From positions 61,992 through 125,991 of the forward strand of contig CAZKCV010000001.1 of NCBI GenBank assembly GCA_964551605.1: a stretch of 64,000 nucleotides of DNA, given 5' to 3'. Numbering within the stretch: the first letter of the stretch is position 1; every line of letters starts with the position of its first letter. The notes under the pieces are model-generated. The model worked only from the letters and a program-made list of their open reading frames with translations. It did no database searches and had not been told where the DNA came from. Of this stretch, positions 6,601 through 53,143 are shown piece after piece. The position numbers and the translations under genes are program-made. Source of the DNA: an uncultured Gammaproteobacteria bacterium. GTDB taxonomy: Bacteria > Patescibacteriota > Microgenomatia > Daviesbacterales > UBA10151.

Positions 6601-9165
6601 TTACAATTTCTGTAAAAAGTCAGCAATTTTCTTTCCGTCTCTTTTTAACCATTCGGCATTGGAATAAATCTGTTCCAGGGCTTGAGCGATAGTTCTTTTG
6701 GCTTCCGGAACCGGGTTTTTCTTTACAAAGCCTTCAATATCTTTGGCATCCTCTTTTTTGGTAAACTGCCCGGCTGGACCAAATACTTTAGTAAAATAAT
6801 GTCCTCCGGCATACCTTTCTTTAAGTAATCTCCAGTTCTTTTTTACAAATTCCCAAGCTAAATATCGCCCGACAGGATTGCTCCAAACAGCAGCGATGAT
6901 TTGCAAACTATTTTGGAATCTGACATGCTTGGAAATGGAAAAATCCAGGGTTTTAGAAAGTAACTGTTTACTATTAAACTTACCTAATGCCCTTCCAATT
7001 CTATCTTTTTCCTGTTGATTATCTTTCTCTTTATACATCTTCATTAAAGTCTCAAATTCTGCTTTGCTGCCATTTTCAGCCACTAAATTGTAAACTACAG
7101 CCTTTAGATCAGGGTCAATTTTCTTACCGAATAAACTTTGGGCGGTTTTTATAGTTTCCTGATCTCCGAATCCTCCCAGCATATTCAAGACCATGCCCCG
7201 AAGCAAGGAATCAGTATGTTTCTCGCCTTTTCTAGTTTTCCAGCCCAGCTTTCCGGCTATACCTTTATAAATACTTATGCCATATTTTTTGAAATCTTTG
7301 TAAAAAGACTTTTGTGCCAACAAAGAATCAAGTTGTAACAACTTTCCTGTCAACTCAGCCCAAACCGTGTAATCTTCTTCATCCCTATAACTTTTAGCCA
7401 GCTCCAAAGACAAAGTAGTCGGGCTTTGGCCTGATTCTGCCAAAGAAAAAGAGTCCCTGATAAGGCCTAATCTGTCCGGTGCCGGGAGTTTATTTTTCTT
7501 AACAGCCTGTTCCAGGTTTTTAAGATAGGAATGAGGATAATCAATTCTGACCATGGATACTTCTCCCATGTTAAGTTTTTCTCCTTTGTCAGGGATACTC
7601 ATTTGTTTTTTCTCCATCAGAAACTGTTCGCTACCTATTCTTAGAGGTATATTCCAAATAGTGTTATCTTTCGTTTCTTTTTTAGAAATTGGACTGGAGA
7701 AAAATCTGGATTGAATTAATTCCAGCTTCCCCCTTTCCCCTTTATGCTTTACCCTTATCAACGGATGTCCCGGCTTTGAAGTCCAGTTTTTCATTACTTT
7801 AGTAACCGGCTTACCGCTTTTTTCCTCCAGCGCTTTCCATAAATCTTCTGTTCTGGTATTGGAATAAGCATGTCTTTTCAGATAATGCTGCAGGCCTTTT
7901 TGGAAATCCTTATCCCCTAAATATTGCCAAAGCATCCGCAGCACCGAGGCCCCTTTGGCATAAGAAACACTGTCAAAGATTTCGGAAATTTCCGCCGGGT
8001 GGCCAACTTCCACTTCAATCGGGTGGGTATTTTTTAGAGCATCAAGAGAAAGAGCCTCGGCCAGCTCAGTTCCCACAAACTGAGTCCAAATATCCCATTC
8101 CGGAAAAATATTATTGATAGCCAAATACTCTATAAAACAAGCAAAACCTTCATTCAGCCAAAGGTGAGTCCACCACTCCATGGTAACTAAATTGCCAAAC
8201 CACTGGTGGGCCAGCTCATGGGCAATTACCAATGCCACCCGTTGCTTGTTTTCTGTAGATGAGACTTCTTCATGAACCAAAAGAGCTGACTCCCGGTAAG
8301 TCACTGCTCCCCAGTTTTCCATAGCCCCGGCTGCAAAATCAGGAATAGCAATCATATCTAAAACAGGTAATGGGTAAGGGGTACCAAAATAATTGTCATA
8401 AAAATCTAAACATTTGCCGGCCACCTCCAGGGCAAACCTGGCCTGCTCTTTTTTGCCGGGAGAAGTAAAAACCCTGACTAAAACCCCATTCTTGGTTTTG
8501 CCTTCAATATATTCAAAATCCCCTACAATAAAGGCTAAAAGATAGGTAGACATCTTGGGAGTAGGAACAAATTCCACTATTTTGTAACCGGATTCATGCT
8601 CGGAAATATTAGACGGCACCGTGTTTGAAATAGCTGCCATCCCGGCCGGAACCATCAAAGTCACATCAAAGATGGCTTTTTGGGCCGGTTCATCAAAAGA
8701 AGGAAATGCCCTCCTCGCATCAGTTGACTCAAACTGGGTAGTTGCCAGATGCTTTGATACTCCACTCACTTCATAGCGGGAACGGTAAAAACCCCGCATC
8801 TTATCATTCAAAATTCCCTGAAAGGTAAGTTTTAACTGTCCCTTGCCTTTTTGAATGTTTTTAGGAAAGCTAAAGGTGGCAGTTTCTGCCTTTTTGTCGT
8901 AGCTGATCTTCCCAGCCCAAATTTCTTTGTTTTTATGAACAAACTCAGCACTTTCTATTTCCAGCTCCACAGCATGAAGCGTGATTTGTTTGGAGGGTTT
9001 GTCTAAAGATAAAAAAATTGTCTCTTCTCCGGTAAAAGTAAACTCATTCAAATCCGGCTTGAGCATGATCTTGTAACGCTCCGGCTTAACATGAACCGGC
9101 AGTCTAATACTAATTTTATTTTTCATAATTTGTAACTTATATCTGAATCTCCATCGCTTGTCCAT
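6601..9165 (-). CDS. pepN: aminopeptidase N (M1 family)
   Basis: GAMEN motif (AAGAMENWGAV) and HEXXH-18-E zinc site (HELAHQWFGNLVTMEWWTHLWLNEGFA). An ATG at 9126 is an alternative start. Confidence 0.9.
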   Translation of the reverse strand: MDKRWRFRYKLQIMKNKISIRLPVHVKPERYKIMLKPDLNEFTFTGEETIFLSLDKPSKQITLHAVELEIESAEFVHKNKEIWAGKISYDKKAETATFSFPKNIQKGKGQLKLTFQGILNDKMRGFYRSRYEVSGVSKHLATTQFESTDARRAFPSFDEPAQKAIFDVTLMVPAGMAAISNTVPSNISEHESGYKIVEFVPTPKMSTYLLAFIVGDFEYIEGKTKNGVLVRVFTSPGKKEQARFALEVAGKCLDFYDNYFGTPYPLPVLDMIAIPDFAAGAMENWGAVTYRESALLVHEEVSSTENKQRVALVIAHELAHQWFGNLVTMEWWTHLWLNEGFACFIEYLAINNIFPEWDIWTQFVGTELAEALSLDALKNTHPIEVEVGHPAEISEIFDSVSYAKGASVLRMLWQYLGDKDFQKGLQHYLKRHAYSNTRTEDLWKALEEKSGKPVTKVMKNWTSKPGHPLIRVKHKGERGKLELIQSRFFSSPISKKETKDNTIWNIPLRIGSEQFLMEKKQMSIPDKGEKLNMGEVSMVRIDYPHSYLKNLEQAVKKNKLPAPDRLGLIRDSFSLAESGQSPTTLSLELAKSYRDEEDYTVWAELTGKLLQLDSLLAQKSFYKDFKKYGISIYKGIAGKLGWKTRKGEKHTDSLLRGMVLNMLGGFGDQETIKTAQSLFGKKIDPDLKAVVYNLVAENGSKAEFETLMKMYKEKDNQQEKDRIGRALGKFNSKQLLSKTLDFSISKHVRFQNSLQIIAAVWSNPVGRYLAWEFVKKNWRLLKERYAGGHYFTKVFGPAGQFTKKEDAKDIEGFVKKNPVPEAKRTIAQALEQIYSNAEWLKRDGKKIADFLQKL

Positions 9166-9188
9166 AGTCCACTCTGTAATCCCTCATT

Positions 9189-9217
9189 CATTTGTACCAC
9201 GGTCGGAGGACATTTGT
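9189..9217. promoter_or_regulatory. direct-repeat copy 1 (operator-like) between the PaaX-like gene and the pepN start
   Basis: catttgtaccacggtcggaggacatttgt. A near-identical copy at 9721-9749 sits 8 nt upstream of the PaaX-like start codon. Confidence 0.5.
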
Positions 9218-9218
9218 T

Positions 9219-9713
9219 TCAACCTCTAACATTATCGGATTCAATAACCATCACCCAGTCCTCTATCCCGACTTGCTTAATAAAATCTCTTAGTAATCTC
9301 GTGCAATTGATTTTTGAAGCCCAGATGCTTTGCTGCCACTGTTTAAAGCCTAACTGTTTAAGTTTAAACCTCAAAAGATCTCTAGCTTGTCTTCTCTTCT
9401 CTGGAATATCCCACACCACCAACCTCCATTTCCCATCCCATTTTTCATCTCCACTTCTCATTTTGGCCCACAATGCTCTATCTTTACCTGAATCTGTTAA
9501 TCGCAAAAATAACTCTTCATCGCTGACAAATTCAACAAAACCCTTTTCTCTTAAGCGTTTAACCACTTGAGAAAGAACTGACTTTTTAACAGGTCTTTCC
9601 AATAAAGGATTGTAAATAAAATCTTCAAATACTACATATCCATCGATTGATTTCTCTAAAGCTAGCAGAACTAAATCCGTCAAAAACTTACGCTTGCTGG
9701 GAGGCCTTGGCAT
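9219..9713 (-). CDS. PaaX-like transcriptional regulator (short form: wHTH + PaaX middle-domain motif)
   Basis: WDGKWRLVVWDIPEKRRQARDLLRFKLKQLGFKQWQQSIWAS resembles the PaaX WDGKW...PE...R segment. A paralogue lies at 51999-52499. Confidence 0.6.
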   Translation of the reverse strand: MPRPPSKRKFLTDLVLLALEKSIDGYVVFEDFIYNPLLERPVKKSVLSQVVKRLREKGFVEFVSDEELFLRLTDSGKDRALWAKMRSGDEKWDGKWRLVVWDIPEKRRQARDLLRFKLKQLGFKQWQQSIWASKINCTRLLRDFIKQVGIEDWVMVIESDNVRG

Positions 9714-9720
9714 CTTATCA

Positions 9721-9749
9721 CAAATGTACCACGGTCGGAGGATATTTGT
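9721..9749. promoter_or_regulatory. direct-repeat copy 2 (operator-like) immediately upstream of the PaaX-like start
   Basis: caaatgtaccacggtcggaggatatttgt matches 9189-9217 at about 27 of 29 positions. Confidence 0.5.
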
Positions 9750-9795
9750 ACAGAAACCAATTACTTGTACAATTCTTTCTTCGCCAACTTTAAAT

Positions 9796-9821: not shown

Positions 9822-9905
9822 GCCGGGGTGGCGGAATGGCAGACGCGAAGGTCTCAAAAACCTTTGGTCCTAAAGATCATGAGGGTTCGACTCCCTCCCC
9901 CGGCA
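9822..9905 (+). tRNA. tRNA-Leu(CAA), class II with long variable arm
   Basis: Acceptor GCCGGGG/CCCCGGC. Anticodon stem AAGGT/ACCTT with loop CTCAAAA (anticodon CAA). Long variable arm. T-arm GAGGG-TTCGACT-CCCTC. Discriminator A. No encoded CCA. Confidence 0.85.
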
Positions 9906-9907
9906 CA

Positions 9908-18882: not shown

Positions 18883-19818
18883 ATGAATCAAGATTACCTA
18901 AAAGAACAAATTGATCAGATAAACAGACGCATCCAGGACATCAAGTCTTTGCTGGAAGATCCGGAAATGGCTGAACTGGCAGCAGAGGAAATTACCGAGC
19001 TGGAAAGACAAAAAGAGGAATTGCAGTCATCAGTCGTCAGTCATCAGTCGTCAGATGATTCAAACAGTCTGACAGCTGACAGCGAAGCGATACTGAAATC
19101 TGACAGCTGTATATTAGAAATCCGCTCAGCAGCCGGCGGAGATGAAGCCGGGCTTTTTGCCGGAGATTTGCTGCGGATGTATACCAAGTTTGCTCTAAAT
19201 AAAAAGTGGAAGATTGAGGAACTGGACAGATCAGAGGGAAAATTAGGGCAAATTAAGGAAATTGTACTCAAAATAGTCGGAAAAGGCTGTTTTGACTTAT
19301 TAAAATATGAATCCGGTGTACACCGGGTACAAAGGGTACCCACCACTGAATCTTCCGGCCGGATTCACACTTCAACTTCCACCGTAGCAGTACTCCCCCA
19401 TGTCACGGAAGCACAGGTTGCTATTAATCCGGGAGATATAGAATTTGAGGCTTTCAGAAGCGGAGGCGCAGGAGGACAAAATGTTAATAAAGTCTCCACA
19501 GCCGTCAGACTAAAACACATCCCCACAGGAATCACAGTCACTGCCCAAACCGAGCGTTCACAGTTACAAAACAGGGGAAATGCCCTTTCGCTCCTTAGAG
19601 CCAAGCTCTGGGAAATGGAGCAGCAAAAAACTGTCGGAGATATTGAAACACAAAGATCTACTCAAGTGGGAACCGGTGAAAGATCGGAAAAAATCAGGAC
19701 ATATAATTTTCCCCAAAACCGGGTGACTGACCACCGGATCAACAAATCCTGGCATAATTTAGACAGGATCTTAGAAGGAGACCTGGATGATATCATCCAA
19801 ACCCTCTCAGTACATTAA
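18883..19818 (+). CDS. prfA: peptide chain release factor 1
   Basis: GGQ motif ([18 protein letters not shown]). Codon-recognition tripeptide region [17 protein letters not shown] is PxT-type. Contains the 7-bp tandem (cagtcrt)x4 at 19024-19054. Confidence 0.85.
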
Positions 19819-20500
19819 GGGCTGGGTAGAATTTTACAAGTTAAAGTTTAAAGTTACCCCTGATGTTTTAATCCCCCGCCCGGAAACAGAATTATTAGTA
19901 GATGAGGTTTTACGGTACTGTAACCTGTACCCTGAAACCTGTAACCTGATTCTGGACCTTGGTACCGGCTCCGGAAATATTGCCATTTCCATTGCCAAAA
20001 ACTTACGTTTACACCCTTGGGGTGTAAACGTAACAATTGTTGCTACCGATATTTCCCAAAAAGCCCTTAAAGTAGCCAAACAAAATGCGAAGGTGTATGG
20101 AGTCTCCGACCGGATTATCTTTCTCCAGTCTGATCTGCTTAATTATTCAAAAAGTCGACGATCGTCAGATTTTTGTCAACTTGTTCCTGATATTATTGTT
20201 ACGAATCTGCCTTATATCCCGTCCGCCCGGATTCCCTACCTGGACTCTTCAGTCAAGGATTTTGAACCGCATGTCGCGTTGGATGGTGGTGAAAACGGCT
20301 TTAAGCTTTATAGAAAGCTTTTTCAACAGCTTAAATATAGGAACTGGACACCCAAATTACTCATTGGCGAAATCGACTACACTCATGGGGAACTGGCAGC
20401 AAATGAGGCACAAAAGTATTTTCCTGAAGCCTTAATTGAAGTTAAAAAAGACCTGGCTCACTTACAAAGGATCTTAACAATCGAGCATTTCACTGATTAG
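19787..20500 (+). CDS. prmC: release-factor glutamine N5-methyltransferase PrmC/HemK (short N-terminus)
   Basis: NPPY-type motif [12 protein letters not shown]-binding [12 protein letters not shown]. Overlaps the prfA 3' end by 32 bp. Confidence 0.75.
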
Positions 20501-39608: not shown

Positions 39609-40520
39609 CTAAGGATACTTCATTCTAGCCTCCTCGGGGCTCAAAACTTCCCTTATAGAATGATCGTCATTAATTACTGCCACCTGCTGGGTATGGACAC
39701 TGTCATGGGCTAAATTTTTAATCTGGATGGCCGGGTGAACAGACCGCCAGAAATAATAGACAAATTCTTTAATTTGCCCTTTGCTCATCCCCTTTCCCTG
39801 TGCCCGCAAAACTTCCTCGGCCTGGTCTCTCCATTTCAAAGATATCCGGTAGTCAGGCACATATAATACATTCATAAAATCGATCATCTCCCACAGGGGT
39901 AAGTATTCATCTAATTTCCGATTAATATCCTGGGCAAACTGGATGTGTTCAGGTGTATCCAAAGCCGGCAAACCGCTTTCAAAAACAGACTCATCCTCCA
40001 CCCTTCTGGCACCCAGCATCCACCCGTCATAAAGAATAAAATCCGGTTTTTTTGAAATGGTTTTCCATCCTACCCGATCCCCATCTCCCTGCTGTGCTCC
40101 CTTATCATATATGGGAATTTTCACTTCCATGCCGTCTGTCATTGTCTGCAAATCTTCTAAGTTTTGTATAGCCAACGGGATATCGTGGGTAGCACCCCTT
40201 CGTATAAATCTGGGGTCTTTTTCCCTTAATCTATTGAGTTCCTGATGGGTAACATAGTGGTCATCAATAGACAAAGAAATTGAGGAGTAACCAAAATGCG
40301 AAAGCAGAATTTCCATAACCTCACCCTGCGTGGTTTTACCCGCCCCCTGAATGGCTGAAACCCCTACAATTAGACCATTTGAACTAACCCTTTGCCGTTT
40401 GATAGCGATTAATTTCTCAACATATGGATAGTAATATAGGTCCAAATCACGTTCTAAACCCTCCCGTGATATTTCCGGCCGTTTGGCAAAAAAAGCATCA
40501 AAATTAATACCTTCAATCAT
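39609..40520 (-). CDS. P-loop kinase of the uridine-kinase/PRK superfamily resembling D-glycerate 3-kinase (GLYK/TDA10-like)
   Basis: Walker A GVSAIQGAGKTTQ. RRGATHDIPL and IPIYDKGAQQGDGDR blocks recall the GLYK RG-PGTHD / YDKS...GDR motifs (from memory). Confidence 0.5.
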   Translation of the reverse strand: MIEGINFDAFFAKRPEISREGLERDLDLYYYPYVEKLIAIKRQRVSSNGLIVGVSAIQGAGKTTQGEVMEILLSHFGYSSISLSIDDHYVTHQELNRLREKDPRFIRRGATHDIPLAIQNLEDLQTMTDGMEVKIPIYDKGAQQGDGDRVGWKTISKKPDFILYDGWMLGARRVEDESVFESGLPALDTPEHIQFAQDINRKLDEYLPLWEMIDFMNVLYVPDYRISLKWRDQAEEVLRAQGKGMSKGQIKEFVYYFWRSVHPAIQIKNLAHDSVHTQQVAVINDDHSIREVLSPEEARMKYP

Positions 40521-50799: not shown

Positions 50800-51780
50800 T
50801 TAGTTTCTTTCTTCTTTGTGGGACTTAGGAATTAATTTCTCAGATATTGAATCACCTTTATAAATACAATTTATAGCTTCTGCTAAAAGTTTAGCAACAG
50901 AAATTACAACAAACTTAGGATTTTCCAAAACTTCTTTTCTAAGCGGCACTGTATCTGTAATAAAAATTTTTTCAAGAGGCGAATCATTAATCCTTTTTAA
51001 TGCCGGGTCAGAAAAAAGTCCATGTGTCGCAGCAGCCGAAACACTTTTGGCTCCCCTCTTCTTAATTAATCTGGCTGCTTCACAGATGGTTCCGGCAGTA
51101 TCAATCATATCATCTACCAATAATACATCTTTGCCTTTGACATCACCGATCATGTCCAAAACCTTGCTTTCATTTTTCTTCATCACATCCCTTTCCTTAA
51201 AAACAATGGCTACCCCTTCTGCATTTAGTAAATCTGCATAAAATGCAGCCTTTAATACACCGCCTTTATCTGGTGAGGCTATGACTAAATTTGAACTAAA
51301 GACTTTTTTAAGTTCCGGGAGAAAAGAATAACTACTGTAGAGATTATCCCAGGGGATTTCCACAAAGCCCGGTTCCTGTTCGCTGTGGATATCCACAGTC
51401 AAAATTCTATCAGCTCCGGAAAATTCAATTAGTCTGGCAATTAAAGAAGCTGAGATTGGCACCCGGGGCCTGTCTTTACGGTCCTGCCGGGAATAACCAA
51501 AATAAGGAATGATGGCTGAAACCTCCGAAGCGGAAGACCTTTTTGCTGCATCTATAATTAAAAGCAATTCCATTATATTAGCATCTACCGGCGGACAAGT
51601 TGGTTGGATAATAAAAACATCTCTTTTCCTTAAATTCTCGGGGATAACAATTCTTTTCTCGCCGTCTGCAAAAACAGTGACAGTTTCATCCGCATCTTTA
51701 CCTAAATTTTTGGCAATTTCTTTGGCTAATTTTAAGTTGGCAGTTCCTGTCAGTAGTACAAAACCGTTATCGTTAGCCAT
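50800..51780 (-). CDS. prs: ribose-phosphate pyrophosphokinase
   Basis: PRPP-binding loop VLLVDDMIDTAGTICEAARLI. N-terminal FVLLTGTANLKLAKEIAKNLG. Confidence 0.9.
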   Translation of the reverse strand: MANDNGFVLLTGTANLKLAKEIAKNLGKDADETVTVFADGEKRIVIPENLRKRDVFIIQPTCPPVDANIMELLLIIDAAKRSSASEVSAIIPYFGYSRQDRKDRPRVPISASLIARLIEFSGADRILTVDIHSEQEPGFVEIPWDNLYSSYSFLPELKKVFSSNLVIASPDKGGVLKAAFYADLLNAEGVAIVFKERDVMKKNESKVLDMIGDVKGKDVLLVDDMIDTAGTICEAARLIKKRGAKSVSAAATHGLFSDPALKRINDSPLEKIFITDTVPLRKEVLENPKFVVISVAKLLAEAINCIYKGDSISEKLIPKSHKEERN

Positions 51781-51961
51781 AGAGATTAGATTAAACCATT
51801 ATACCATGAGTTCAATACACACCCTCAAGCTTACTTAAAGTTTCTCTCCTTTATTGAAAAATTGATTTTCTCAACCATATAGCAAATAATACTATATCTT
51901 ATAGTTATCGTCAAGTACCGATACTCAGGTTTTATTATTCTGATAACACAACTTTACTCGT

Positions 51962-51999
51962 TTAGGCCGATCGGTCTATTTGTCTAAAGTTAGAGATTC
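51962..51999. promoter_or_regulatory. direct-repeat copy (operator-like) between the PaaX-like paralogue and the prs start
   Basis: ttaggccgatcggtctatttgtctaaagttagagattc. Partner at 52525-52562 (ttgggccgatcgtcaagtttgactaaagtcagatattc) contains palindromes GTCAAnnTTGAC and TGACTnnAGTCA. Confidence 0.5.
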
Positions 52000-52499
52000 T
52001 AAGCTACATCAGTACCAACCACTACCCTCACCCAATCAGACAAACCAACCTCTTTAATAAAATTCCGCAAGGGACTTGTTACATCCTTTTTACCGGCCCA
52101 GACACTTTTCTGCCAAGGCTCAAACTCCCACTCCCTAAATTTACTCCGCAAGATTTTTCTTAATTTCCGGTGCTTTTCCGGGATATCAAAAATGACAATC
52201 CTCCACTTCCCATCCCATTTATCCTCTGCTAAAAGCTTTTTTATTATTGCTTCCTCCCTACCTCTATCTGTTAATTTCAACATAATTTTCCCACCGTCTT
52301 TTTTGGTTTCAATAAAACCTTTTTCACGCAAATCCCTAACCGCTTGATAAAGAGCTCCGTAATTTATTTCTCTTGGATCTCGTCCCGGATAAACATACCA
52401 GTGGGAGTTGTAGGCAAAATCAATTAGCAAAACACCACTCTGAATCGATTTCTCCAAACCAAGAAGCAAAAAATAACTTAATGAATTTTTCTTAATCAT
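51999..52499 (-). CDS. PaaX-like transcriptional regulator (paralogue of 9219-9713)
   Basis: WDGKWRIVIFDIPEKHRKLRKILRSKFREWEFEPWQKSVWAG. N-terminal wHTH. Confidence 0.6.
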   Translation of the reverse strand: MIKKNSLSYFLLLGLEKSIQSGVLLIDFAYNSHWYVYPGRDPREINYGALYQAVRDLREKGFIETKKDGGKIMLKLTDRGREEAIIKKLLAEDKWDGKWRIVIFDIPEKHRKLRKILRSKFREWEFEPWQKSVWAGKKDVTSPLRNFIKEVGLSDWVRVVVGTDVA

Positions 52500-52524
52500 G
52501 AGTACATTCTCAAACTATACTTAT

Positions 52525-52562
52525 TTGGGCCGATCGTCAAGTTTGACTAAAGTCAGATATTC
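52525..52562. promoter_or_regulatory. direct-repeat copy (operator-like) in the divergent region between the PaaX-like paralogue and the GNAT gene
   Basis: Matches 51962-51999 at about 31 of 38 positions. Starts 26 nt upstream of the regulator start codon. Confidence 0.5.
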
Positions 52563-52588
52563 CTTATCTCCTATGGTAAAATGAACAT

Positions 52589-53143
52589 ATGAAACCAGGA
52601 ACAATTGTTTATACAGGTAAATCAAAGTCAAGAAAAGAGATAGTTTTCCGCTATCCTAATAAAAATGACCTAAGATCTTTATGGGAATACATTAATAAGA
52701 TCTCTAAAGAGAAAACCTTTATTACTTTTCAGGGGGAAGAAATGACTTTGGAAGGAGAAAATAAGTGGCTGGAAGGAGAACTTAAAAAAATTGCTGAGGG
52801 AAAAGCTGTTCAACTATTGGTTTTTTCTGATAATAAACTAATTGGTGTTTCCGGAATTACTATGAAAGAAAGAGCGGAAAAGCATGTTGGCATTTTTGGC
52901 ATTACTATAGCAAAGAGGTTCCGAGATGACGGCATTGGAGCGCTTCTAATGGAAACTGTTTTAAAAGAGGCAAAGAAAAATCTCAAAGACTTAAAGATTG
53001 TTACCTTAGGAGTTTTTGGCAACAACGCTGTTGCTCAGAAATTATATAAGAAAATGGGTTTTATTGAATATGGGAACTTACCAAAAGGAGCTATCCACAA
53101 TGGCGTCCCTGTTGATCATGTCTACATGTACAAAGAAGTTTAG
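52589..53143 (+). CDS. GNAT-family N-acetyltransferase
   Basis: Acetyl-CoA motif A region RFRDDGIGALLMETVLKEAKK ... LYKKMGF. Confidence 0.7.
   Translation: MKPGTIVYTGKSKSRKEIVFRYPNKNDLRSLWEYINKISKEKTFITFQGEEMTLEGENKWLEGELKKIAEGKAVQLLVFSDNKLIGVSGITMKERAEKHVGIFGITIAKRFRDDGIGALLMETVLKEAKKNLKDLKIVTLGVFGNNAVAQKLYKKMGFIEYGNLPKGAIHNGVPVDHVYMYKEV

What the first reader, a model, noticed from the sequence alone, without database searches (positions are those of the whole stretch)
51955..52570. Second PaaX-like cassette: 38-bp palindrome-containing direct repeats flank the regulator between prs and a GNAT gene
TTAGGCCGATCGGTCTATTTGTCTAAAGTTAGAGATTC (51962-51999, ending at the regulator stop codon and upstream of the prs start) and TTGGGCCGATCGTCAAGTTTGACTAAAGTCAGATATTC (52525-52562, 26 nt upstream of the regulator ATG, in the divergent region shared with the GNAT gene) match at about 31 of 38 positions. 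The upstream copy contains two perfect interrupted palindromes (GTCAAnnTTGAC, TGACTnnAGTCA) typical of dimeric wHTH operators. A third partial copy (atcgtcaagtaccgatactc) sits at about 51905-51925. This predicts coupling of PRPP synthetase expression, and hence purine supply, to this regulator.
Basis: seen in the sequence. Interest (0 to 1): 0.55.

Follow-up and report, generated by a model that had tools for sequence, protein, structure and literature searches.

The report
Operator pair brackets mini-PaaX regulator gene
The two repeats are real and are most likely the binding sites of the small regulator encoded between them; nearly every gene of this regulator family in these ultra-small (CPR) bacteria carries one such site on its promoter and a second at its stop codon, an arrangement the papers I could search do not describe.

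Summary
A direct repeat flanks the 166-aa regulator gene (51999-52499, minus strand). It is longer than reported: 51950-51999 versus 52513-52562, 38 of 50 identical.

The protein is a truncated PaaX: a winged helix plus a Cas2-like domain, without the PaaX C-terminal domain.

The repeat is a family hallmark. In 72 of 82 homologous loci from Daviesbacteria and relatives, and in 7 of 8 distant Patescibacteria loci, the gene is bracketed by two copies of a locus-specific 36-45 bp dyad. Each dyad has an invariant CGRYCG core and outer arms. In this locus the arms are ACTTTA-N28-TAAAGT, close to E. coli PaaX's TGATTC-N27-GAATCA.

The upstream copy carries promoter hexamers, usually 5-9 nt before the ATG. 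Here it also covers the -35 position of the divergent GNAT promoter. The downstream copy overlaps the stop codon, lacks promoter hexamers, and persists when the next gene is convergent.

Sites occur almost only beside family genes. Syntenic relatives lack both gene and sites.

Best reading: an operator-gene-operator autoregulatory module. Coupling to prs is weak in this genome. The "third copy" is a separate promoter.

The parts
52513..52562 (-). Upstream site U (operator overlapping promoters). Core CGATCG 52531-52536. Arms on the + strand: AACTATAC 52513-52520 and CTAAAGTC 52547-52554.
   Evidence: Direct repeat with 51950-51999, 38/50. Weight-matrix score 18.1. Conserved in orthologues L001-L004.
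52514..52519 (-). Likely -10 hexamer TATAGT of the regulator's own promoter, 14 nt before its ATG. It replaces the TAAAGT arm seen in the downstream site.
   Evidence: Read from sequence. GTATAGT/GTATATT conserved in U of L001-L004. Function inferred.
51999..52499 (-). Regulator gene, 166 aa: winged helix plus Cas2-like domain (mini-PaaX, no PaaX_C).
   Evidence: Pfam PaaX_M 1.5e-17. Foldseek top hit E. coli PaaX 8a39, E 9e-6. AF2 beta-alpha-beta-beta-alpha-beta at 99-162.
51950..51999 (-). Downstream site D, ending on the stop codon. Core CGATCG 51968-51973. Outer arms ACTTTA 51951-51956 and TAAAGT 51985-51990 (N28).
   Evidence: Weight-matrix score 15.6. Only 2 substitutions versus L001.
52574..52582 (+). 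Extended -10 TGGTAAAAT of the divergent GNAT gene, 6 nt before its ATG (leaderless geometry). Its -35 position falls inside U.
   Evidence: Read from sequence. The same box is seen in L094, L095 and L096. Function inferred.
52589..53143 (+). GNAT acetyltransferase, the conserved neighbour of this regulator subfamily.
   Evidence: Pfam Acetyltransf_1 5.6e-15. Orthologues beside the regulator in L002, L003, L004, L093, L094.
51886..51914 (-). Promoter-like site TTGACG-17-TATTAT reading towards prs.
   Evidence: 10 of 12 hexamer matches. Conserved in L001, where it precedes a 271-aa gene.
51831..51878 (-). 15-codon remnant of the 271-aa gene that lies between the regulator and prs in L001.
   Evidence: Alignment with L001 breaks after this stretch. 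ORF list of L001.
51798..51806 (-). Extended -10 TGGTATAAT, 17 nt upstream of the prs ATG.
   Evidence: Read from sequence. An equivalent box occurs in the empty-site loci L095 and L096.
50800..51780 (-). prs (ribose-phosphate pyrophosphokinase), downstream neighbour.
   Evidence: Pfam Pribosyltran_N 9e-42.
9714..9755 (-). Upstream site of the paralogous module (first locus), core CGACCG.
   Evidence: Weight-matrix score 31.1. 24/25 repeat with 9193-9217.
9219..9713 (-). Paralogous mini-PaaX gene, 164 aa, 44% identical to the gene of this finding.
   Evidence: tblastn. Pfam PaaX_M 2.5e-21.
9182..9223 (-). Downstream site of the paralogous module, upstream of an aminopeptidase N-like gene (6601-9165).
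   Evidence: Weight-matrix score 25.4. Synteny with an 840-890 aa gene kept in L043, L049, L055, L057, L059, L067.
20141..20182 (.). Solo site of the same motif family inside the prmC coding sequence.
   Evidence: Weight-matrix score 27.1. DNA conserved in L081 and L083.

Best explanation
The two repeats are the cognate operators of the regulator encoded between them. Together they form a compact operator-gene-operator module that is the standard format of this mini-PaaX family in CPR bacteria. The protein probably binds as a dimer, with the two winged helices on the outer arms (ACTTTA-N28-TAAAGT here) and a conserved part of the protein over the invariant CGRYCG core.

The upstream site lies on the gene's own promoter and, in this locus, over the -35 position of the divergent leaderless GNAT promoter. 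Occupancy would therefore repress the regulator itself and the GNAT gene.

The downstream site overlaps the stop codon and is not a promoter. It most likely acts as a second anchor for the same protein. It would control transcription leaving the module, either as a roadblock to read-through or by sitting about -55 to -70 from the next promoter. It may also cooperate with the upstream site.

Shown: the sites, their family-wide conservation and geometry, promoter hexamers in U but not in D, exclusive association with family genes, and PaaX-like fold.

Inferred: binding, repression, leaderless starts, and the role of D.
For: - In 72 of 82 loci a CGRYCG core lies both within 70 nt upstream of the ATG and at the gene end. 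The modal core-to-ATG distance is 15 nt (14-18 nt in 49 of 72). The modal stop-to-core distance is 12 nt.
- Own upstream and downstream arms share a mean 20 of 32 positions, versus 11.5 for other loci. The own downstream site ranks first among 72 in 37 loci and in the top three in 56.
- 7 of 8 distant Patescibacteria members show the same bracket.
- TTGACA is perfect in 32 of 72 upstream sites but only 3 of 72 downstream sites. A good -10 occurs in 49 versus 21. The -10 ends 5-9 nt before the ATG in 32 of 49.
- All 91 strong matrix hits in 482 kb flank a family gene. There are none in 275 kb of regulator-free GNAT loci.
- The downstream site is kept next to real convergent genes.
- Dyad complementarity is confined to the core and to positions 12-14 from the centre. 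This fits protein contacts and the published E. coli PaaX box TGATTC-N27-GAATCA (PMC9493321).
- Fold and Pfam place the protein with PaaX.
- In L094 both sites abut the neighbours' -10 boxes.
Against: - No binding or expression data exist for any member.
- The role of the downstream site is unresolved. It is retained in 15 loci where the next gene is convergent. The spacing between the two sites (507-568 bp) shows no helical phasing.
- In this window the downstream site is 170-220 nt from prs.
- The central dinucleotide of the core is the same in both sites in 63 of 72 loci, versus 43 expected. This could reflect gene conversion rather than selection by the protein.
- A conserved solo site inside prmC has no obvious promoter to regulate.
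- The upstream promoter of this particular locus has a 15-nt spacer and was not called by the consensus scan.
Confidence: 0.65

Rival explanations
1. The downstream copy is simply the operator or promoter of the next gene (prs here). The bracket would then be a by-product of a regulator sitting just upstream of its target.
For: The downstream gene is co-oriented in 46 of 61 loci. Its start clusters 55-90 nt from the site centre in 24 of 42. Synteny with aminopeptidase N is kept in the paralogue's subfamily. In L094 the site lies 46 nt from the prs ATG, next to its -10 box.
Against: 75% co-orientation is about what adjacent bacterial genes show anyway (my own general knowledge, not computed here). 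The site is kept, up to 30/30 identical, in 15 loci with a convergent neighbour, six of them confirmed by Pfam. Its position is fixed relative to the regulator's stop codon, not to the next start. It lacks promoter hexamers. prs is the neighbour in only some orthologues.
Confidence: 0.12
2. The repeats are recombination or insertion scars: att-like sites or a long target duplication of a small mobile cassette. They could be recognised by the Cas2-like protein itself or by a host recombinase.
For: - The gene plus both sites behaves as one unit. At the prs-GNAT-purC locus it is absent (L095, L096), lies between prs and GNAT (window, L004, L094), or lies between GNAT and purC (L002, L093).
- The core dinucleotide evolves in concert in the two copies.
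- A solo site sits in frame in a hypervariable loop of prmC.
- In L025 a module with about 60-80 nt of extra flank sits inside a small ORF, between 70-bp direct repeats 68/70 identical.
Against: - Paralogues are old (44% identity within this genome) and sit in conserved synteny, yet their sites stay similar. Similarity is therefore maintained rather than recent.
- The empty sites L095 and L096 carry no solo site.
- The L025 insertion is not bounded by the two sites.
- Outer duplications occur in only 2 of 71 loci.
- There are no viral relatives and no dispersed copies.
- The GNAT divergence (64%) against flanks at 83-89% fits replacement by homologous recombination.
Confidence: 0.08
3. The sites are bound by some other factor that recognises CGRYCG, such as a global DNA-binding protein or a restriction-modification component, rather than by the encoded regulator.
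For: The core is the same in all subfamilies although the proteins differ. CGRYCG is, from my own knowledge, a type II restriction recognition pattern.
Against: Sites occur only beside family genes. The arms are locus-specific and track the protein subfamily. CGATCG is not depleted in the window: 3 observed against 3.7 expected.
Confidence: 0.07
4. The repeats act as RNA hairpins, for example a terminator or stabiliser at the 3' end of the transcript.
For: The sites are imperfect palindromes. The consensus scan flags a short stem plus T-run in the downstream copy, but on the opposite strand.
Against: Folding energies are no better than shuffles, z from -0.25 to +0.83. Complementarity is about 50% between core and outer arms. 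G-U and A-C mismatches are equally frequent. If transcripts are leaderless, the upstream copy would not be transcribed. No Rfam match.
Confidence: 0.02

Closest known systems
PaaX, the phenylacetyl-CoA-responsive repressor of E. coli and Pseudomonas
   Same: Winged helix followed by a Cas2-like middle domain (Pfam PaaX_M; Foldseek top hit 8a39). PaaX represses its own promoter, and its operator is made of 6-bp inverted repeats about 27 bp apart (PMC9493321). Here the arms are ACTTTA-N28-TAAAGT.
   Different: Half the size: the C-terminal PaaX_C domain is missing. It scores 28.6 bits against a 264.55-bit equivalog cut-off. No paa genes are nearby. It has an extra invariant CGRYCG core and a second operator at the 3' end of its own gene. 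There are many paralogues per small genome.
Repressors with auxiliary or flanking operators (lac O1/O2, gal OE/OI, lambda CI with OL and OR flanking the immunity region)
   Same: Two copies of the operator of one repressor a few hundred bp apart, one on the promoter and one downstream. In lambda they bracket the repressor gene.
   Different: Here the second site sits at a roughly fixed position on the stop codon of a 0.5-kb monocistronic gene, across a whole protein family. No helical phasing was detected, and oligomerisation is unknown.
Lrp/AsnC (feast/famine) regulators
   Same: About 160 aa, a winged helix plus a beta-alpha-beta-beta-alpha-beta effector or oligomerisation domain. They are local, autoregulated regulators of adjacent, often divergent genes.
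   Different: No sequence match to the AsnC-type domain. The second domain here is Cas2/PaaX_M-like.
Cas2 of CRISPR adaptation modules
   Same: The C-terminal domain has the Cas2 fold and the conserved aspartate after strand 1 (D105 is invariant). Databases often name these proteins Cas2.
   Different: It is fused to a winged helix and scores below the Cas2 model cut-offs. There is no CRISPR array in the window. The flanking repeats are 0.54 kb apart, with a gene rather than a spacer between them.
REP-RAYT units and IS200/IS605 (a gene flanked by its own cognate palindromes)
   Same: A small gene flanked on both sides by the palindromic sequence its product is thought to recognise. An occasional solo copy occurs elsewhere.
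   Different: No HUH/Y1 transposase domain. The repeats are direct rather than inverted. There is virtually no dispersal: 0 solo copies in 482 kb and 1 in this 64-kb window.

Membership tests
PaaX family (TIGR02277; Pfam PaaX + PaaX_M + PaaX_C) | N-terminal winged-helix DNA-binding domain | tested here: met
   AF2 model helix-strand pattern at residues 7-91. Foldseek aligns 168 columns to PaaX 8a39, E 9e-6. Only weak PadR/MarR-type Pfam hits and no hit to PF07848.
PaaX family (TIGR02277; Pfam PaaX + PaaX_M + PaaX_C) | Central Cas2-like domain (PF20803) | tested here: met
   63.9 bits against a cut-off of 24, residues 93-163.
PaaX family (TIGR02277; Pfam PaaX + PaaX_M + PaaX_C) | C-terminal helical PaaX_C domain (PF08223), the part assigned to effector binding | tested here: not met
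   The protein ends at residue 166, three residues after PaaX_M. No PF08223 hit.
PaaX family (TIGR02277; Pfam PaaX + PaaX_M + PaaX_C) | Equivalog score for PaaX | tested here: not met
   28.6 bits against a cut-off of 264.55.
PaaX family (TIGR02277; Pfam PaaX + PaaX_M + PaaX_C) | Operator of two 6-bp inverted repeats about 27 bp apart, overlapping its own promoter | tested here: met
   ACTTTA-N28-TAAAGT in the downstream site. The arm becomes TATAGT in the upstream, promoter copy. Compared with TGATTC-N27-GAATCA (PMC9493321). Sequence only; binding was not tested.
PaaX family (TIGR02277; Pfam PaaX + PaaX_M + PaaX_C) | Control of phenylacetate catabolic genes and response to phenylacetyl-CoA | tested here: not met
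   The neighbours are prs, GNAT and purine genes. The ligand is not testable with these tools.
Cas2 (CRISPR adaptation) | Cas2 model score | tested here: not met
   PF09827 17.3 bits against 23.8. TIGR01573 14.0 (this gene) and 24.4 (paralogue) against 24.5.
Cas2 (CRISPR adaptation) | Association with a CRISPR array or cas1 | tested here: not met
   No array-like tandem repeats in the 64-kb window. cas1 was not searched for specifically.
Lrp/AsnC | AsnC-type ligand-binding domain | tested here: not met
   No such family among Pfam hits at E <= 0.1.
REP-RAYT / IS200-IS605-like units | Many dispersed copies of the flanking palindrome in the genome | tested here: not met
   0 solo sites in 482 kb, 0 in 275 kb, 1 in the window.
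REP-RAYT / IS200-IS605-like units | HUH/Y1 transposase domain | tested here: not met
   No such Pfam hit. The fold matches PaaX and Cas2.
Looping repressors with auxiliary operators | Two operators for one repressor within looping distance | tested here: met
   Core-to-core spacing 507-568 bp, mean 541.
Looping repressors with auxiliary operators | Helical phasing of the operators, or higher oligomers | tested here: inconclusive
   No 10-11.5 bp periodicity, Rayleigh p about 0.3. Loops of about 540 bp need none. The oligomeric state is not testable here.

The most novel reading that the evidence does not exclude
The site-gene-site unit is a portable regulatory cassette. It is gained, lost and relocated as a whole, and wherever it lands between promoters it places both neighbours under its control. 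In the strongest form, the Cas2-like protein itself takes part in duplicating or recombining its flanking 36-45 bp palindromes, which would echo repeat duplication in CRISPR adaptation. The evidence that leaves this open is the three states of the prs-GNAT-purC locus, the concerted evolution of the two cores, the in-frame solo site in prmC, and the L025 insertion.
Probability: 0.08. Interest if true: 0.85.

Novelty: new variant of a known kind. Interest (0 to 1): 0.6.

Why it matters
CPR/Patescibacteria are almost entirely uncultivated, and essentially nothing is known about how they regulate genes.

This family is large: 3748 clusters at 50% identity with E <= 1e-10. For each member, the analysis gives a specific, testable operator prediction, a likely promoter with leaderless geometry, and candidate target genes, all from sequence alone.

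A second operator on the stop codon of the regulator's own gene, kept across a whole family and independent of the downstream gene, is not a standard feature of bacterial repressors. It points to either an unfamiliar autoregulatory or insulating mechanism, or a modular, transferable regulatory unit.

The invariant CGRYCG core next to variable arms is also a natural system for studying how paralogous regulators avoid cross-talk.

Tried and rejected
- RNA hairpin or terminator reading: folding no better than shuffles, a patchy complementarity profile, no G-U bias, no Rfam match.
- Downstream site as a promoter: perfect TTGACA in only 3 of 72 and a good -10 in 21 of 72, with no difference between co-oriented and convergent contexts.
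- Phased DNA looping: no periodicity in the spacing.
- Third copy at 51905-51925: a promoter, not a site.
- CRISPR link: no array.
- Phage or defence link: no viral relatives; only weak Cas2 and winged-helix hits in PADLOC and PHROGs.
- Avoidance of CGATCG in the genome: not significant, 3 against 3.7 expected.
- A third paralogue in the window: the weak tblastn hit at 40086-40274 lies in a 303-aa ORF with no resemblance to the family, which I judged a kinase-like P-loop protein by eye and did not scan.
- Outer target duplications around modules: found only in L025, and weakly in L047, out of 71 loci.
- Literature: no paper in the library links PaaX with Cas2-like domains or with Patescibacteria.

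Full report
**Observation.**
The region reads as the first stage described.
- The regulator ORF is 51999-52499 on the minus strand (166 aa).
- prs is 50800-51780 (minus strand) and a GNAT gene is 52589-53143 (plus strand).
- The two 38-mers sit at 51962-51999 and 52525-52562. They match at 29 of 38 positions.
- The repeat finder extends the pair to 50 nt, 51950-51999 versus 52513-52562, with 38 of 50 identical.
- The flank-to-flank score of 26 is reached by 0.2% of 1500 cross-locus control pairs.
- The 38-mer has no other match in the window within three mismatches.

**The protein.**
- Pfam gives PaaX_M, the Cas2-like central domain of PaaX, at 1.5e-17 over residues 93-163. It gives only weak winged-helix hits in the N-terminal half and no PaaX_C.
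- The NCBIfam PaaX equivalog scores 28.6 bits against a cut-off of 264.55.
- An AlphaFold model (mean pLDDT 75) shows a beta-alpha-beta-beta-alpha-beta domain at residues 99-162.
- Its best PDB match is E. coli PaaX 8a39 (E 9e-6), followed by other PaaX-like entries. Cas2 chains match the C-terminal domain.
- The protein is therefore a truncated PaaX relative, called mini-PaaX here.
- The organism is a Candidatus Daviesbacteria bacterium, judged from the names of the closest homologues.
- A profile search finds 6112 clusters at E <= 1e-3 and 3748 at E <= 1e-10.

**The repeat is a hallmark of the family.**
- The window holds a paralogue (44% identity) at 9219-9713. It is flanked by its own, different repeat, TGTACCACGGTCGGAGGAYATTTGT, 24 of 25 identical.
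- I fetched 80 homologous loci from species-representative genomes and compared the 250 nt upstream and downstream of each gene.
- In 64 of 77 loci the best direct match lies within a few nucleotides of both the ATG and the stop codon.
- Forty of 77 exceed the 99th percentile of cross-locus controls, against 12 for the inverted orientation.
- Anchored on a core CG[AG][TC]CG, 72 of 82 loci have the core on both sides (the 82 include the two window loci).
- The modal core-to-ATG distance is 15 nt, and 14-18 nt in 49 of 72. The modal stop-to-core distance is 12 nt. The stop codon often lies inside the left arm.
- With the core excluded, own upstream and downstream arms share a mean 20 of 32 positions, against 11.5 for other loci. 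The own downstream site ranks first among 72 in 37 loci and in the top three in 56.
- Eight members taken from a search seeded with a distant family member (29-45% identical to that seed) come from other Patescibacteria, and seven of them show the same bracket.

**Anatomy of a site.**
- Complementarity about the dyad centre is 0.92-1.0 in the core. It is about 0.5 for the next nine positions, and 0.68-0.89 at positions 12-14.
- In the subfamily of this finding (window, L001-L004, L094) the conserved parts are ACTTTAG, about 9 nt, NCGATCGN, about 10 nt, then CTAAAGT. That is ACTTTA-N28-TAAAGT in the window's downstream copy.
- This is close to the published E. coli PaaX box TGATTC-N27-GAATCA (PMC9493321).

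**The upstream and downstream copies differ systematically.**
- Upstream copies carry a perfect TTGACA in 32 of 72 loci and a good -10 in 49 of 72. The -10 ends 5-9 nt before the ATG in 32 of 49, which implies leaderless or nearly leaderless transcripts.
- Downstream copies carry these in only 3 and 21 of 72, regardless of the orientation of the next gene.
- In this locus the upstream arm reads GTATAGT, a -10 hexamer 14 nt before the ATG. The downstream arm reads GTAAAGT.
- On the other strand, the GNAT gene has an extended -10, TGGTAAAAT, 6 nt before its ATG. Its -35 position lies inside the upstream site.
- The same layout is seen in L094.

**The downstream copy is not just the next gene's operator.**
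- The next gene is co-oriented in 46 loci and convergent in 15.
- Six of ten convergent genes that were scanned have clear Pfam domains. In L021 the site overlaps the end of a convergent ROK gene.
- Where the next gene is co-oriented, its start clusters 55-90 nt from the site centre in 24 of 42 loci. In several loci an extended -10 lies 44-56 nt from the centre. This places the site around -55 to -70 of the next promoter.
- Core-to-core spacing is 507-568 bp without helical periodicity.

**Sites go with the gene.**
- A 42-nt weight matrix built from the 144 sites finds five sites in the window. Four flank the two paralogues and one is a solo site at 20141-20182.
- In the 482 kb of fetched loci, all 91 hits scoring 20 or more flank a family gene. 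Shuffled sequence gives none.
- I then fetched 79 metagenomic loci of GNAT relatives.
- Only two carry the W2-type regulator next to the GNAT gene. L093 has it convergent, as in L002. L094 has it divergent, as in the window. Only those two carry sites. A third locus (L153) has a 33%-identical family fragment downstream and no site.
- The 75 loci with no family match (275 kb) have no hit scoring 14 or more.
- L095 and L096 keep the same synteny. Their prs is 89% identical to the window's and their purC 83-85%. Yet their prs and GNAT starts are 43 nt apart, with two back-to-back extended -10 boxes and no site.
- The locus thus exists in three states: without the module, with it between prs and GNAT, and with it between GNAT and purC.
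- The GNAT genes are orthologous (65-68% identity).

- The 'third copy' at 51905-51925 is the -35 end of TTGACG-17-TATTAT (10 of 12 matches).
- That promoter-like site is conserved in L001, where it precedes a 271-aa gene. The window retains only 15 codons of that gene.
- A further extended -10, TGGTATAAT, lies 17 nt before the prs ATG.
- The downstream site is therefore 170-220 nt from prs and upstream of two other promoter-like sites.
- Among orthologues, the gene after the regulator is prs (window, L004, L094), enolase (L003), the 271-aa gene (L001) or a convergent GNAT (L002, L093).
- Coupling to prs is plausible in L094, where the site abuts the prs promoter, and probably in L004. It is weak here.
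- No site lies upstream of the other purine genes of the window.

**Rivals.**
- RNA structure is disfavoured.
- A mobile or recombination reading is kept alive by several results: the presence/absence states; the concerted evolution of the core (identical in 63 of 72 loci against 43 expected); the solo site in prmC; and L025, where a module plus 60-80 nt of flank sits in a small ORF between 70-bp repeats that are 68 of 70 identical.
- Against that reading:
  - Paralogues are ancient and syntenic, yet their two sites remain alike.
  - Empty sites carry no solo site.
  - The L025 insert is not bounded by the sites.
  - Outer duplications occur in only 2 of 71 loci.
  - The family has no viral relatives.
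- The divergent GNAT (64%) between conserved flanks fits replacement by homologous recombination.

**Verdict.**
I found no description of it in the searchable literature. Binding, repression and the role of the 3' site are inferred, not shown.

Noticed in passing
window 20141-20182 (inside prmC, 19787-20500, + strand): A solo site of the same motif family (weight-matrix score 27.1, above the median of true sites) lies in frame in a hypervariable loop of PrmC, where it encodes [10 protein letters not shown]. The 36-nt DNA is identical in L081, although nearby codons differ. L083 keeps it with core CGGTCG. Minimal PrmCs lack the insert. No promoter or family gene is nearby, and its function is unknown.
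   Followed up: partly
window 19918-19949; proteins P0124, P0127, P0130: The same PrmC loop in other Daviesbacteria holds a second copy of a peptide (CNLYPETCN) that also occurs near the N-terminus. In the window that stretch is a 14-nt tandem repeat. The loop seems to take up short repeated DNA in frame.
   Followed up: partly
window 12547, 12615, 19024, 24680, 27141, 28427, 34462, 37290, 56009, 62205: About ten short arrays, each 25-38 nt long. Most are 7-nt units repeated about 4 times or 14-nt units about 2.3 times, with one of 16 nt and one of 13 nt. They are scattered through the window and at least one lies in coding sequence (prfA).
   Followed up: no
window 51831-51914: A remnant of a gene lost from this genome: a conserved promoter-like site (TTGACG-17-TATTAT) followed by 15 codons that match the start of a 271-aa ORF present between the regulator and prs in L001.
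   Followed up: partly
L095 2455-2503 and L096 675-722: In regulator-free relatives, prs and GNAT are divergent and 43 nt apart, with two back-to-back extended -10 boxes about 6-12 nt from each ATG. This suggests leaderless or near-leaderless transcription of housekeeping genes in these bacteria.
   Followed up: partly
L025 2839-2908 and 3613-3682: A 70-bp direct repeat (68/70 identical) flanks a 703-bp insert consisting of a complete site-gene-site module plus 60-80 nt on each side. The insert splits a small ORF and looks like a recent insertion with a long target duplication.
   Followed up: partly
L001 around 2890-2990, versus window 52563-52600: The closest relative (regulator 94% identical) has lost the GNAT gene and keeps only a few bases resembling its start. 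The two flanks of the module change quickly between close relatives.
   Followed up: partly
window 9822-9906: A tRNA-Leu(CAA) gene lies 66 nt from the upstream site of the paralogous module, with its 5' end facing the module.
   Followed up: no
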